A program made the translations under genes and the position numbers. The notes beneath the pieces are model-generated. The model did not search any database. It had not been told where the DNA came from and saw nothing but the letters and a program-made list of their open reading frames with translations. This document shows, in pieces, positions 11,270 to 46,655 of a stretch of DNA of 48,417 nucleotides; positions within the stretch are counted from its first letter, which is position 1, and each line of letters opens with the position of its first letter. This DNA comes from Octopus sinensis (lineage: Eukaryota): positions 1 to 48,417 of the forward strand of contig NW_021834464.1 in NCBI RefSeq assembly GCF_006345805.1, written 5' to 3'.

Positions 11270-12501
11270 TTATGTCAAGTATGAAATTTGTAGCAAGGTG
11301 TATGGTAAACTTTGACAGCTGCTCATTTTGCGCCATTATTATATTTTGACAATCTTTATATTTTTGTTAGAAAGCTAGCACATATTTTTCTCTATTCTAA
11401 CTGATATTGCGCTTTATAAAGTATTGCTGTTTTTGTTTAGAAATGGATAAGTCGGAAATTCGTACAGTTTTGAAACATGAGTTCTTTCTTGGAAATACTG
11501 CATCACGGACATCTCGGAATGTTAATGAGGTATTTCAGTTTAATGTTATTACACACCAGACAGTGTCAAATTGGTTTGCAAAATCTTGTTCTGGTACCTT
11601 TGACCTCACAAATGAGCTACGCGGTCGACCAGAAATAAAGGTGGATAATGACGAACTGAAAGCCAGCGTCGAATCAGATCCATCTCAAAGTTCCCGTGAA
11701 TTATCGTTGACTCACCTAGTTCAAATCGGTAAAGTGAAAAATTTGGATAAGTGGGTTCCACATGAACTCAATGAAAATCAGAAACAGCAATGTTTGGAAG
11801 CCTACATTATGCTACTTTCTCGTCACAAAAGTGAATCATTTTTTAATCGAATTGCAACATATGATAAGAAATGGATCCAATACAACAACTGTAAACGTTC
11901 AGCACAATGGTTGGACAGAAATGAGCCACCAAAGCACAATCGAAAAAGCAAAATTCATTAAAAAAACTGATGATGTGTTTGGTGGTCTGTCGCAGGTGTG
12001 ATCCATTATGATTTCATTAAACCTGGCTCATCAATCACGACCGAAGTATACTGCAACCAACTGGACCAAATGATGCAGAAACTTACAAAATAACAGCCTA
12101 GATTAGTCAACAGATCCACTCGTATTTTATTGCAAGACAACGCCAGACAAGACATCGGAAAAATGACATTGGCGAAACTACAGGAGTCAGAGTTGGAAGT
12201 TCTCCATCATTCACCATACTCACCTGGTCTTGCCCCCCACTGACTACCACTTCTTCCAGAATTTAGATAAGTTTTTGGTAGGAAAAAAAATTCCGACGAT
12301 GCTTTAAAACAGGCCTTCCAAGATTTTATTGACTCAAGATTTCCAAACTTTTACAGTTCTGGGCTGGACAAGCTACTGCTGAAGTAGCAAAAGTGTATTG
12401 ACAATATGGATGCATACATTGATGAATAAAACTATACCTTGTATTTATAAAACATTGGCAAACTTTTTTCTTTTCTACAAATTTCATACTTGACAACTTA
12501 A
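11270..12501 (+). mobile_element. Near-complete mariner (DD34D) transposon with TIRs and TA flanks; transposase pseudogene ~11443-12429
   Basis: TIRs tgtcaagtatgaaatttgtag / ctacaaatttcatacttgaca. Motifs WVPHEL, TYDKKW, LLQDNAR, PYSPGLAP and DYHFF. Internal stops and a short deletion. Confidence 0.95.
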
Positions 12502-35658: not shown

Positions 35659-36790
35659 CAGGCGTTGTACAAAATAATGAAAACACCTAGCATCATAGCT
35701 TCAAAAGCTTGTTTATTTTTATGTTTTCTTTATTTATTATTAGTGTTGCTTAATATGTTTTGCTAAAATTGCTGTTTCTTTTCAGATATCATCAGATAAA
35801 GGTAATTAAAATTTCATTAAAATTACAGGTCTATCGGACTTTCAAAGATATCAAATTGTTGGTGTTCGTATGGCAGGCGTTAACATAATGAAAACCACCG
35901 AATTGCTTGGTATATCAAGAAGTACTGTCTCGAAAGTAATAACAGCCTTTGAGAAACAAAACTCCAGAAGAAGACCAAAACTTTCAGATAGAAACCGTCT
36001 GACTCTTACGCGAATTGTTAGAAAGGATCACAAAACTACAGCTCCCGAAATTACTGCAGAGCTTAATAACCACCTCGAAAACCCAGTTTCCACAAAAAAC
36101 TGTTTGCTGAGAGTTGCACAAAACCGGAAATTACGGCAGGGCTGCTATCAGAAAACCACTACTTTCAAAAACAAACGTTGCAAAGCAATTAGTGTTGAGT
36201 AAAAACCTACAGAATTGGTCCCAAGTGCTGTGGAAGTATGTTATTTTCTCGGACGAGTCATCCTTTACCTTATTTCCGAACACCGGCTGAATAGATGTGT
36301 GGAGACATCCAAAAGAAGCATTTGACCCAGACTGCTTTCTTCCAACTGTTAAACATGGAGGAGGAACTGTGTTGATCTTCGATGTTATATCTTGGAATTG
36401 CGTCGGCCTAATGGTTTCGCTTCATGGCAGAATTAATAGTCAAGACTATTTAAGCATTTTATCTGAACAAATTCATCATATGGTTGCGGAACTGTTTCCA
36501 AAGGAAACCGCAATCTTTCAGGATGATAATGCACCAATTCACACAGATAAAATTGTTATTGAATGACATGAGGAACATTCTAGTGAACGTGAACATCTTA
36601 TCTGGCTACCACAGTCCACAGATCACAATATTATTGAACATTTATGGTGCATTTTAGAAAAACAAGTAAGGAGTCGATATCCTCCACCATCATCACTACA
36701 AGACTGTTTTAACTGAGGAATGGGAAAAAATTACTTTGGAAACAATTCAAACTTTGTACATACTTCGTAGAATTCAAGCAAAGATTGCAA
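35659..36790 (+). mobile_element. Degenerate Tc1 (DD34E) transposon, right end missing
   Basis: Starts TA-cagg; motifs LSDFQRYQIVG, FSDESSF, TVKHGGG, FQDDNAPIH, WLPQSTDHNIIEHLW. Confidence 0.92.
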
Positions 36791-36869
36791 TACTTATTTA
36801 TTTTTTAAAGCCTGGTACTAACTATCGTATTTTGTGAAATATAACGCGTCTTGAATGGCACAACAAAGC

Positions 36870-37500
36870 AGTCTAACAAATATTTCGGAATATAAAAATT
36901 CCTTCTTCAGATATTGCTAAGAATTGATCGAGTCACTGCTATAATTTTTTTTTTTTCAACGGTTCCTAAAATATTCTTTTCGGAAGCGTCTCTGCAGTGG
37001 TCTCATGAATCTCCTTCCGGAATTCCTCATGAGAAGTGCGTGAGGGCGGCCATGTCTCGTGCACGTGTTTGCTGGCATATCTGCAGCGCTGTTTCTTTGT
37101 TATGTATCATACGTGCAATTAAAAAAAAATTATGATACATGAGCATGTTACCAGAAACGAACTTACACGCATCCGGATGTAGCTAAATAATATATTGATT
37201 GCTAATTTCCAGCCTGTTGTTAATTTGGGGCCTTAGTCTGTCTGTGAGGATAGCTTCCTTAATTCTTAGATTTCCTAATTTTTTGTCATTGACCTCAACT
37301 GTTATGCATTTGTCGGTGTTCCGGCATCGGTCCAGATGTTTTCTGAAGGAGGAGGTACGCATGTTGACCTGTTCTTTCATACGAATGTGTAATGGTCTTG
37401 CTGTGCTACCCACATAGAACTTGTTGCATTTGTTACGTTGTATTCTATACACAACATTCACTCGTTGCCATAAATCTGTGTGACGGATGGGGCAGTTAGC
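36870..37500 (-). mobile_element. Penelope-like element 3' fragment: GIY-YIG endonuclease (37183-37461) and downstream terminal region
   Basis: NVVYRIQ..KCNKFYVGSTARPLHIRMKE...LRIKEAIL...PQIN; HHR-like remnant at 36870-36920. Confidence 0.85.
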
Positions 37501-37544
37501 TACTGTACATTGATTGCTGTCCCTTGCTCGTTTCTTTGATGGGT

Positions 37545-37741
37545 ATATCTTTTTTTTTTTGCCGAACCGCTAATTTATGTGGACATAAACAAGCCAACAC
37601 CGGCTGTCAAGCGGGGGGAGAGACAAACACAGATACAAAGACGCCCATGGATAATTATATATTCAACGAGCGTCTTTCAGTCTCCGACTACCAAATTCGC
37701 TCAGAATGATATGATCGACCCGAGGCAATTATAGAAAGGAC
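37545..37741 (-). mobile_element. Diverged SINE family B, truncated at the retrozyme-like unit
   Basis: tttgccgaaccgctaa...tctttcagtctccgactaccaaattc. Confidence 0.7.
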
Positions 37742-38127
37742 TCGAGCGGTTACTGTTTACATCTCGTTCAGAGATTTATTATGCTTTTCGAAATCAGTGA
37801 CAGTAGTTACTGGGAAAAACATTAAATAGATATTTGCAAACAGGTCTCTCTTCGTCGAAAACCGGTGATTACCGTACGTTGACAAGAGGCAAATACCTCG
37901 AAACTGCAGTCCGTGCGTATCACTTAGGTTTACGAGAGTGGGATGACCTCTCTTTGCAAATATCATAAGGACACAGAAAGTGTGCCTAAAGCCAGCTGGA
38001 GACGATGATCTCCTGGGGCTAAAAGCTACAGTAACACCCACCCTTAGTGGTTAACCATATTGAGATGGCTAGTATACTTTACGTTGTCGAGCGGTTACTG
38101 TTTACATCTCGTTCAGAGACTTATTAT
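37742..38127 (+). mobile_element. Retrozyme-like unit: 345-nt monomer plus 41-nt terminal redundancy
   Basis: Direct repeats 37742-37782 and 38087-38127 (1 mismatch); central hammerhead; no coding capacity. Confidence 0.75.
37873..37917 (+). ncRNA. Type I hammerhead ribozyme, U3-A8 core variant
   Basis: cguacg UUGACAA gagg caaaua ccuc GAAA cugca GUC cgugcg; all three stems pair; predicted cleavage after 37911. Confidence 0.85.
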
Positions 38128-38142
38128 TGCTTATATATATAG

Positions 38143-38195
<53 letters not shown>

Positions 38196-38296
38196 ATATA
38201 TATATATATATAATATATAAATATAATATATATATTTACACATGCACACGCGTGCACACGTACAGACACATACGCACACAAAAATACACACATATA

Positions 38297-40627
38297 TGAA
38301 ATTCCACCAGCCGAAAGCTAATCCTAGTGACCTTCCGCCAGCCCACCCATTTGACAACATGGATCTCCATAATGCCAACTGGATGCAATCAGGAACGAGC
38401 TATCACATGTTGACTGGTCCTTTACACATACACACACATCTCCACCAACCATAAAACATCTTGGCAGATCTTTGTAGACACCGTCACAGACATATGTGCA
38501 AAACACTCCCCACCAAGACCTGTGAACAAAAAGTGCAGAATCCCCCAAAACAGAAAATCCTTATCAGAAAAATAAAAAGAACAAACAAAAAAATTAACAA
38601 CTAAAGTACTGCCAACAGCAACACACACATTCGACGGCTATCGCACTGCTTGAATCTCTAAAAATATAACCTCCAACAATGCATGAAGACCCTCATCAAT
38701 AACCAAAGATCAGCTGAGGAGAAGTGGGCCATTGAAAAAATCAAACTCACCCCAAAGTGTTCTTTTCATTTGCGAGGAAACGCAGGGTCACTGTCTCCAC
38801 TGTAGGCCCTCTAATTGACGAAACTGGCACTCTCCAAGATAATGCCAAATCCATGGCCGAGATACTGCAGATACAATACTGCTCTGTTTTCAGCCATCCT
38901 GATATGGCCGATCTGGGCTGTATCAGTGATGTCAACCCCCAACACACTATATCGGACATAACGTTTAGTGCCCCTGATGTCTTAGCGGCGATAAACGAAA
39001 TAAAACACAATTCAGCAGTAGGCCCCGATAGGTTCCCTGCTTGTGTCCTGAAGGTGTGTCGACACCAACTTGCATCTCCCCTTGCTATCTGTGGAGAAAC
39101 TCACTGGATGCTGGCTATATTCCAAAAAACCTTCTGTCCCAGTCTGTTGTCCCAGTTTTCAAAAAGGGAAACAAGTCCCTTGCAGTGAATTACCGTCCGA
39201 TCTCACTCACCTCTCATATCATCAAGGTATTTGAGAGGGTGGTGAGATCTCGAATAACCCAATTTCTGGAAAGCAACAGACGGCTGATCTCCAACCACAT
39301 GGTTCCGTAATGGAAGGGACTGCCTGACGCAGCTCCTGCATCACTTTGAGGACATTTTGAGAGCTTTGGGAGAGGGCTCCAACACCGATGTCATCTACCT
39401 TGATTTCAGTAAGGCCTTCGACAGGGTCGATCACAAGATCCTATTGAAAAACTATCCAACATTGGTGTCTCTGGAAAGTTACTGAAATGGATCAAGTGTT
39501 TCCTGACAGACAGATCTCAACATGTTGTAGTTGAAGGGGTAAAATCAAGCCCAGCCAAAGTCAGTAGTGGCGTTCCGCAAAGCACTGTGCTGGGCCCACT
39601 CTTTCATCATTTACATTAATGATATTAATGACATCATCAAGCACAGCAACATAAAAATCTTTGCAGATGACTCCAAGCTACAGAAGGTCATAAATGAGGC
39701 GAGTGACCGGACATGCCTTCAGTCAGATCTACTGGCTGTTATCCAATGGGCAGAAAAAAACATATGCTGCTGAACGAGGATAAATTTGAGCTAATCCACT
39801 TTGGAAAAGAGGATGCCCTGAACTCCCATACTCCCTTCCTTCAGGTGAAACTCTCGCGGCGTCCAACAACATCAGAGACTTGGGAGTAATTGTGGACAAC
39901 AACATAAGCTGGGCCACTCATATAAACACCAAAGTTGACATGGCCCGCAGAATGTGTTCCTGGATTCTCAGAACTTTCCAGTCGAGAGATATCCACACCA
40001 TTATCCTTCTCTTCTCCACTTTTGCCCGACCCCACCTTGAATACTGTTGTCCACTGTGGTCTCCCCACACAATACAAGGTATCATAAAAGTTGAAGCACC
40101 TCAAAGGGCAATCACAAAAAAGATAGATGGCATGACAGGCCTCGACTATTGGGGTTGACTAGAAAAGCTAAAACTCTATTCTCTCCAACGTCATCGTGAG
40201 CGCTACATCATCTGCATGATGTGGAAAATATTTCATCAGCATTGCCCAAGTGTACATCCAAGGTACATCCAAGGCTTGGGCCCCGTGCCATCCGCCCAAA
40301 ACAAAAATCGCACTCTCATCTCATAACAACAATACGGCACAATTATTTCACCTCAATTGGCCCCGCTCTCTTTAACATTACACCAAAACACATTAAAACA
40401 GAAACTGACCCTGTAGGGTTCAAGAAGTCTTTGGACAGATTCCTTCAAGAAATCCCGGATAAACCCCCTACACCCGGATATGTCTCTGTAAACAATAACT
40501 CTCTACTTGAGTGGGCCATAGTGCCCAAATTCTGACTTGAAAGACTTCACCAGGTGGTGCTATTAAGTTAGACATGGCCTGGGCCAATAATGGCCGAAAC
40601 CTATCAAAGTATCAAAGTATCAAAGTA
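38297..40627 (+). mobile_element. 5'-truncated CR1-group LINE (ORF2 RT pseudogene), tail (atcaaagt)3
   Basis: NYRPISLTS, DVIYLDFSKAFDRVDH, SGVPQ, FADDSKL, RPHLEYCCPLWSP; several frameshifts. Confidence 0.95.
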
Positions 40628-46359: not shown

Positions 46360-46655
46360 ATTATATAAAAGGGCTTAGTAAAATAAAATTACTTTGCCGC
46401 ATACTGAACTCATTAGGAAATAGCAGCTAAAAAACTTTTTTAAGGCTATTTCTAATACTTAAAGAAAATCTCTCTCATATATAGTGTTTGAAATTTAACT
46501 CACAAAATTTTGTGAGTTAAATTATGCAAACAATATATGAGAGAGATTTTCTTTAAGTATTAGAAATAGCCTTAAAAAAGTTTTTAGCTGCTATTTCTAA
46601 TGAGTTCAGTATGCGGCAAAGTAGTAATTTATTTACTAAAGCCCTTTTATATAAT
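46360..46655. repeat. Spacerless ~148+148-bp palindrome within a (TA)n-flanked element (46263-46655)
   Basis: Centre cacaaaa|ttttgtg at 46507/46508; arms differ by small indels. Confidence 0.9.

What the first reader, a model, noticed from the sequence alone, without database searches (positions are those of the whole stretch)
37742..38127. Retrozyme-like 345-nt circular-RNA footprint with an intact variant hammerhead
Seen: a non-coding unit whose first 41 nt recur exactly 345 nt later, with a complete type I HHR at 37873-37917. Stem I extends into a long imperfect rod (gugau/aucac, aaacc/gguuu, cucuc/gagag, gauauuugcaaa/uuugcaaauauc). Known: metazoan non-LTR retrozymes are monomers of a few hundred nt with type I HHRs that yield small circular RNAs. 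Inference: monomer-plus-overlap is what reverse transcription around a circle (or of a multimer) leaves behind, so this may be an undescribed cephalopod retrozyme family mobilised by PLE enzymes. A PLE GIY-YIG fragment lies about 280 bp away.
Basis: partly seen in the sequence, partly recalled or inferred. Interest (0 to 1): 0.85.

Follow-up and report, generated by a model that had tools for sequence, protein, structure and literature searches.

The report
Hammerhead retrozyme with Penelope insertion footprints
This is one copy of a non-coding repeat family of about 357 bases, present at over a thousand places in the genome, that carries a predicted self-cutting hammerhead ribozyme, and its copies have the two fixed ends and inverted arms typical of Penelope-like retrotransposons, so it likely spreads as a small circular RNA copied by a Penelope enzyme.

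Summary
Confirmed, with corrections. The 41-nt repeat and the type I hammerhead (U3-A8 core, palindromic stem III) are real. The family unit is 356-357 nt; 345 reflects a 12-nt deletion private to this copy, and the element ends at 38132. The family has 1,296 hammerhead-half matches and at least three lineages, with compensatory changes in the ribozyme. Of 260 arms, 214 end at one of two fixed sites about 46 nt apart. 5' ends vary, arms reach 3.1 units, and 47 of 48 inverted pairs use one site at each end. Targets are AT-rich, often with 10-14-nt duplications. This is the Penelope-like (PLE) 'tail' signature, so PLE mobilisation is well supported. A circular template is likely but not shown: reverse transcription runs through the cleavage site without scars, yet a one-lap stop test was negative. 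The neighbouring PLE fragment shares no DNA with the element; the partner enzyme is unidentified. This copy has one ribozyme and is a dead-end footprint. It is a new member of the non-LTR retrozyme class; I found no such insertion anatomy in the two main papers on the class. The scan noted hammerhead/PLE units before in other genomes, but not this family.

The parts
37742..38132 (+). Whole insertion, 391 nt: about 1.1 laps of the 357-nt unit, 5'-truncated, ending at family end site B; GC 0.42, non-coding
37742..37782 (+). 5' copy of the overlap (unit positions 1-41); it stops at a 12-nt deletion private to this copy
37829..37964 (+). Imperfect rod extending hammerhead stem I
   Evidence: z -7.16; upper part kept across 22 aligned copies
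37873..37917 (+). Type I hammerhead: 6-bp stem I, U3-A8 core, 4-bp stem II, 2-bp stem III; predicted cleavage after C37911
37903..37910 (+). 8-nt palindrome (stem III plus loop), predicted to pair between two ribozymes in a dimer
   Evidence: cofold; other palindromes at this place in sister lineages
38082..38086 (+). End site A of the family (unit positions about 353-357), passed through in this copy
38087..38132 (+). PLE-type 'tail' of about 46 nt between end sites A and B, with a conserved small hairpin; site B at 38132
38133..38230 (+). (TA)n microsatellite target at the 3' end
   Evidence: family tendency

Best explanation
This is a 5'-truncated, 1.1-unit copy of a dispersed non-coding hammerhead element (a non-LTR retrozyme) whose insertions carry the Penelope-like signature, and it was likely made by a borrowed Penelope-like reverse transcriptase/endonuclease copying a circular RNA of about 357 nt. 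Shown: the family, the conserved ribozyme fold, two fixed 3' ends about 46 nt apart, variable 5' ends, arms longer than one unit, inverted pairs with site A at one end and site B at the other, AT-rich targets and target duplications. Inferred cycle: rare genomic copies with two ribozymes are transcribed and cut, probably as a dimer through the stem III palindrome; a host ligase closes the monomer; a PLE enzyme nicks AT-rich DNA and starts internally at A or B; it runs round the circle for a variable distance; when both target strands are primed, one at A and one at B, the two cDNAs join head to head. Insertions longer than about 1.7 units become new source copies. The window copy has one ribozyme and cannot yield a circle itself. 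PLE mobilisation about 0.9; circular rather than linear multimer template about 0.65.
For: Copy number: 82 exact 33-nt hammerhead matches (control 0); 1,296 matches to the 3' half at up to 2 mismatches (control 0); 397 with the C3-G8 core (control 0); 375 with the other stem III palindrome (control 4). Ribozyme: 93.7% of cells paired, position 3-8 is U-A in 14 and C-G in 8 of 22 rows, 5 of 13 pairs change on both sides, slid controls pair 13-51%. Ends: 214 of 260 arms end at A (117) or B (97), windows covering about 6% of the unit; 47 of 48 inverted pairs with both ends at A or B are mixed. PLE literature: two internal start sites define a 30-40-bp tail, AT-rich nicks, both strands extended, predicted protein dimer (PMC11167929, main text read); inverted 5'-truncated copy with the tail usually on one end only (10.1101/2021.04.23.441226, passages). 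A young autonomous PLE in this genome has the same two-ended pattern (13 A and 7 B of 20 ends; 4 A/B and 1 B/B inverted pairs among 30 loci). Targets: (TA)4 after 39 of 115 ends against 3.6% background; duplications of 7 nt or more in 34 of 83 loci, mostly 10-14 nt. For a circle: 98 of 140 arms span the cleavage site, with no indel at unit positions 175-183 in 106-108 arms per position; only 3 of 208 5' ends lie near it; successive laps show no recurrent differences beyond CpG level (at most 4 of 50 arms); the longest arm is 3.1 units; subfamilies form a ladder, which needs a way to regenerate multimers.
Against: No cleavage, ligation or circular RNA was shown. The circle-specific test failed: arms do not stop preferentially one lap from their own start (Fisher p = 1.0). 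No partner PLE shares DNA with the unit in about 74 PLE loci. The tail resemblance to the young PLE did not beat shuffles for this lineage (p 0.26-0.28). That PLE inserted at AT repeats in nearly all of 20 ends seen, this subfamily in 44 of 136. Some insertions are chimeric between subfamilies (L043: 9 of 27 diagnostic sites differ between laps; L026: 10 of 26 between arms), so template switching occurs and could also make more-than-unit copies. For the anole PLE, uncleaved RNA was the main template in vitro (PMC11167929). In Xenopus only 1 of 9 retrozyme dimers cleaved in vitro (10.64898/2026.07.22.740005). 35 of 83 inverted pairs have at least one end away from A or B. The duplication count has no chance control.
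Confidence: 0.65

Rival explanations
1. PLE-mobilised non-autonomous element copied from linear RNA: uncleaved read-through transcripts of dimers or trimers, or cleaved monomers joined by template jumps. The hammerhead trims transcripts and no circle is needed.
For: The anole PLE uses unprocessed RNA, and hammerhead mutants did not change insertion in vitro (PMC11167929). Chimeric insertions show template switching. No one-lap pile-up. Four of 140 arms hold two full ribozymes and could supply linear multimers.
Against: If recognition needs sequence downstream of the start site, as in the anole PLE (inferred for this element), each linear generation loses a unit, yet successive subfamilies all include more-than-unit copies. 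No scars at the cleavage site. No long arrays among listed hits (lists partial). Other metazoan retrozymes accumulate as circles (PMC7229834).
Confidence: 0.27
2. The units are only truncated 3' pseudo-LTR ends of an autonomous PLE that I did not find.
For: PLEs are mostly 5'-truncated and carry hammerheads in pseudo-LTRs (PMC4209133). Xenopus retrozymes are homologous to PLE pseudo-LTRs (10.64898/2026.07.22.740005).
Against: Arms that run past one unit continue into the same unit, not into PLE coding sequence. No shared flank beyond common SINE-like pieces among 51 loci. No PLE ORF was recognisable among the long ORFs printed for family loci (output cut, and 64). The ribozyme has canonical 6-bp and 4-bp stems, unlike the minimal ones of the PLEs here.
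Confidence: 0.05
3. A SINE-like element moved by a LINE, or a local duplication or large target-site duplication around an unrelated insert.
For: The window is full of LINE and SINE fragments; the 5' end abuts a SINE-like fragment.
Against: No tRNA gene, no poly(A) end, circular permutation of the unit, and inverted arms whose outer ends are both 3' ends. The 41-nt repeat is family sequence present at 432 exact places.
Confidence: 0.03

Closest known systems
Metazoan non-LTR retrozymes (coral, mussel Mytilus galloprovincialis 350-390 bp, axolotl 330/350 bp; PMC7229834)
   Same: Non-coding unit of a few hundred nt, GC under 50%, canonical type I hammerhead with short palindromic stem III, structured monomer, target duplications longer than 4 bp, co-existence with PLEs.
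   Different: Mostly dispersed single insertions of 0.1-3 units rather than arrays. Two fixed 3' ends and A/B inverted pairs; the words 'tail', 'inverted' and 'truncat' do not occur in that paper's main text. U3-A8 core. Circles and cleavage are not shown here.
Vertebrate non-LTR retrozymes proposed as non-autonomous PLE derivatives (bioRxiv 10.64898/2026.07.22.740005)
   Same: Same conclusion about the mobilising enzyme; dispersed monomers alongside dimers.
   Different: That work rests on co-occurrence and pseudo-LTR homology, has no mollusc mention in its main text, does not analyse insertion ends, and suggests local tandem amplification. Here there is no pseudo-LTR homology but there are trans-mobilisation footprints.
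EN+ Penelope-like elements, e.g. anole Poseidon PAc (PMC11167929) and Neptune/Naiad types (10.1101/2021.04.23.441226)
   Same: Two internal start sites giving a tail, 5' truncation, partial tandems, inverted arm with the tail at one end, AT-rich or (TA)n targets, hammerhead; U3-A8 is known from schistosome PLE ribozymes (PMC4209133).
   Different: No ORF; the whole element is the 357-nt unit; the tail is about 46 nt rather than 30-40; the cleavage site is about 170-220 nt upstream of the end sites.

Membership tests
non-LTR retrozyme | Canonical type I hammerhead (helix I 6 bp, helix II 4 bp, short helix III) | tested here: met
   U3-A8 variant; not detected by Rfam
non-LTR retrozyme | Non-coding unit of 150-450 bp, GC under 50% | tested here: met
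   356-357 nt; GC 0.42; no sense-strand ATG ORF of 30 aa or more
non-LTR retrozyme | Head-to-tail copies with two or more ribozymes | tested here: met
   Met by the family (4 of 140 arms; up to 3.1 units), not by the window copy, which has one ribozyme
non-LTR retrozyme | Target duplications longer than 4 bp when present | tested here: met
   34 of 83 loci, mostly 10-14 nt (no chance control); none evident for the window copy
non-LTR retrozyme | No LTR, primer-binding site or polypurine tract | tested here: inconclusive
   No LTR architecture in any locus; PBS and PPT were not searched
non-LTR retrozyme | Self-cleavage of the RNA | not testable with these tools
   Only fold and covariation evidence
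non-LTR retrozyme | Accumulation as circular RNA | not testable with these tools
   Only assembled contigs were available
autonomous Penelope-like element | ORF with RT and GIY-YIG domains | tested here: not met
   No ORF in the unit and none recognised beside it
PLE-mobilised element (works like) | Two fixed 3' ends (tail), variable 5' truncation, inverted arm with tail at one end, AT-rich targets | tested here: met
PLE pseudo-LTR derivative | Sequence homology to the pseudo-LTR of a resident PLE | tested here: inconclusive
   None in about 74 loci of several PLE families; other PLE families were not sampled

The most novel reading that the evidence does not exclude
These insertions record one PLE enzyme dimer priming both strands of a DNA target on a single 357-nt ribozyme circle, one subunit always at site A and the other always at site B, then running round the circle. 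The family would be a minimal protein-free substrate that defines PLE recognition, explains the one-sided tail and tests whether PLE templates are circles.
Probability: 0.45. Interest if true: 0.78.

Novelty: new member of a known kind. Interest (0 to 1): 0.58.

Why it matters
Which enzyme moves animal retrozymes, and whether PLE templates are circular, are open questions; the papers read argue from co-occurrence and homology. This family gives direct genomic footprints of PLE trans-mobilisation and a near-absolute rule (47 of 48) that the two ends of an inverted insertion use different start sites. The sister lineage has copies 98-100% identical to each other, alongside a PLE with intact ORFs at 97-99% identity, so an in vitro test pair may exist in one genome. 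The class itself is known, which caps the score.

Tried and rejected
Four runs from four studies, under three organism labels, were laid on one natural unit. They cover all 30 bins and show head-to-tail joints and loose ends at site B, but genomic copies give the same, so I draw nothing on transcription or circularity. Rfam: no hammerhead match in the region or in four family loci; the whole-window scan listed mostly microsatellite-driven miRNA matches among the 150 of 273 shown. One-lap stop test: negative. 5' ends at the cleavage site: not enriched. Neighbouring PLE as partner: rejected; no DNA similarity, about 75% protein identity between its copies, different ends. Young PLE as partner: motif resemblance in the tail by eye, but 12 shuffle tests gave at best p 0.04-0.05 (lineage 2) and 0.26-0.28 for this lineage; left open. 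A loose U3-A8 pattern was mostly background (4,242 against 2,808); of 20 regions fetched from its hits, 10 matched the family and 10 did not. The homologue search with the young PLE ORF did not name the host. Literature: searches for retrozyme+hammerhead, octopus+hammerhead ribozyme, Penelope/tail terms, octopus+Penelope-like, retrozyme/cephalopod terms and hammerhead+Octopus bimaculoides showed no description of this family. An Octopus vulgaris repeat paper has no hammerhead, ribozyme or retrozyme mention in its main text. The giant squid genome paper counts 235 hammerhead loci without describing them. The supplement of PMC7229834 and of the bioRxiv preprints could not be read and may list this family; PMC5785218 is not held; Repbase and Dfam could not be searched.

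Full report
Observation. The repeat is real: 37742-37782 recurs at 38087-38127 with 40 of 41 matches, 345 bases on. The hammerhead lies at 37873-37917 with a U3-A8 core, 6-bp stem I, 4-bp stem II and a 2-bp stem III within an 8-nt palindrome; cleavage is predicted after C37911. The rod around it folds far better than shuffles (z -7.16; whole unit z -4.74). Rfam misses the ribozyme. The unit is 42% GC, with no tRNA gene and no sense ATG ORF of 30 aa or more.

It is a family. A genome search gave 95 matches from 40 scored of 4,040 candidates. Patterns gave 82 exact hammerheads, 432 exact tail 26-mers (the tail occurs once per lap, so this is not a copy count) and 1,296 matches to the ribozyme's 3' half at up to 2 mismatches, all with control 0. 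The family unit is 356-357 nt. The window copy lacks 12 nt after 37782, has 10 substitutions and ends at 38132. Subfamilies 78-92% identical have the canonical C3-G8 core (397 matches) and form a ladder in a tree of 55 units (8 of 52 inner branches strongly supported). A second lineage is about 67% identical and a third matches at about 70% over partial alignments.

The ribozyme is kept by selection. In 22 aligned units chosen for diversity from the 55, 93.7% of cells pair; the 3-8 pair is U-A in 14 and C-G in 8; stems I and II change on both sides; slid controls pair 13-51%. The rows are related, so the shuffle control is not a probability. The base of stem II is a mismatch in 11 of 22 rows. 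The stem III palindrome changes sequence between lineages but stays self-complementary, with wobble pairs in some copies. Two copies cofold at -47.1 kcal/mol against -18.7 for one. This fits the dimer mode described for short palindromic helix III, and U3-A8 is reported from schistosome PLE ribozymes (PMC4209133, results and discussion read). Activity is untested.

Insertion anatomy. The main analysis used 260 unique arms from loci picked by ribozyme or tail patterns; 19 of the 30 loci picked by the full-length query were left out because they are biased to long arms. 117 arms end at site A (unit positions about 353-357), 97 at site B (about 45-47) and 46 elsewhere. 5' ends are spread round the unit, and lengths fall off smoothly up to 1,112 nt. 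There are 83 head-to-head inverted pairs. In 48 both outer ends are at A or B, and 47 of these have one of each; in the other 35 at least one end is elsewhere. In the sets picked by ribozyme alone the counts are 17 of 17, 9 of 9 and 11 of 12. Targets are AT-rich (85% against 64%), (TA)4 follows 39 of 115 ends against 3.6% background, and 34 of 83 loci show duplications of 7 nt or more, also around inverted pairs (no chance control). The two arms usually carry the same subfamily variants (30 of 317 diagnostic sites differ, against 39% for random pairs), as do successive laps (14 of 168); a few insertions are chimeric.

What made them. These are PLE marks. For anole PAc, reverse transcription starts at two internal sites that bound the 30-40-bp tail, nicks fall in AT-rich DNA, both strands are extended and the protein is predicted to be a dimer (PMC11167929, main text and part of methods read). 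PLE insertions are 5'-truncated partial tandems, often with an inverted copy and a tail on one end only (10.1101/2021.04.23.441226, passages). A young PLE in this genome, with a 781-codon open frame, a linker zinc finger of Neptune/Nematis type and copies 97-99% identical, shows the same two ends and mostly mixed inverted pairs.

Partner. The neighbouring fragment at 37186-37539 belongs to an older family with its own minimal hammerhead and no DNA similarity to the unit. The young PLE has a U3-A8 minimal hammerhead and a tail with a similar small hairpin and end motif, but the resemblance does not beat shuffles for this lineage. Lineage 2 matches that PLE better in age and (TA)n preference (29 of 34 ends, against 44 of 136 here). 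The partner is unresolved.

Circle or multimer. 98 of 140 arms cross the cleavage site and none has an indel at unit positions 175-183; 3 of 208 5' ends lie near it. A single cleaved linear monomer is therefore not the template. Laps show no recurrent differences beyond CpG level. No arrays longer than about three units appeared in the loci and hit lists seen, and only 4 of 140 arms hold two ribozymes. If the enzyme needs sequence downstream of its start site, as PAc does, linear templates would shorten each generation, whereas a circle regenerates multimers; this step is inference. Against it: no one-lap stop (p = 1.0), template switching does occur, PAc prefers unprocessed RNA in vitro, and assemblies may collapse arrays. 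I put the circle at about 0.65. Other metazoan retrozymes do accumulate as circles closed by RtcB in vitro (PMC7229834, results and discussion read).

Comparison and novelty. It meets the testable features of non-LTR retrozymes and is not an autonomous PLE. A 2026 preprint already argues that animal retrozymes are non-autonomous PLE derivatives, from co-occurrence and pseudo-LTR homology in vertebrates (10.64898/2026.07.22.740005, abstract to discussion read). Neither it nor the 2020 paper treats tails or inverted ends in the main text. Searches found no description of this family; unread supplements, Dfam and Repbase could hold it. No call names the host; a 2.7-Gb genome with about 30 chromosome-scale contigs fits an octopus by my recall only. 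Verdict: a real, new retrozyme family whose insertion ends give clear evidence for PLE mobilisation; circles, cleavage and the partner enzyme remain to be shown.

Noticed in passing
window 36850-37560 (minus strand); L092-L110: Remnant of an older EN+ PLE family (2,059 candidates): GIY-YIG end at 37186-37539 and a pseudo-LTR with a minimal hammerhead, degenerate in the window at about 36876-36915. Unrelated in sequence to the retrozyme.
   Followed up: yes
L216-L220, L226, L230, L235-L264: Young PLE with an intact 781-codon RT-EN frame and an upstream ORF starting about 26 nt after its tail, copies 97-99% identical, U3-A8 minimal hammerhead with a palindromic stem III, strong (TA)n targeting; 217 exact tail matches.
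   Followed up: partly
L131-L135, L181-L185, L323-L342: Second retrozyme lineage (355-362-nt units, about 67% identical) with some copies 98-100% identical to each other, frequent dimers, one 3.1-unit arm (L331) and 29 of 34 ends in (TA)n; the best material for bench tests.
   Followed up: partly
L166-L180; L212:43-418: Third, older lineage with a C3-G8 core, and a further variant with another stem III palindrome. L171 has three ribozymes 87 nt apart (local triplication).
   Followed up: partly
L043, L026, L083: Chimeric insertions whose laps or arms come from different subfamilies, pointing to template switching.
   Followed up: partly
L008:863-926; L086:922-984: A fragment of about 62 nt (unit positions 292-353) sits in the same flanking sequence at two loci and in run contigs, so it was carried into another repeat that then spread.
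   Followed up: no
L054/L055: A one-unit insertion duplicated together with its flank as a 680-nt tandem.
   Followed up: no
window 46431-46584: Near-perfect 154-nt inverted repeat, MITE-like or an inverted retroelement end.
   Followed up: no
window 38300-40160, 11401-11961, 35810-36202: Broken LINE (CR1-like, label from recall) immediately downstream, and Tc1/mariner-like transposase fragments elsewhere (labels from recall).
   Followed up: no
L148-L150: AT-rich short elements with inverted arms ending in (TA)n that matched the loose hammerhead pattern but not this family; possibly ends of other PLEs.
   Followed up: no
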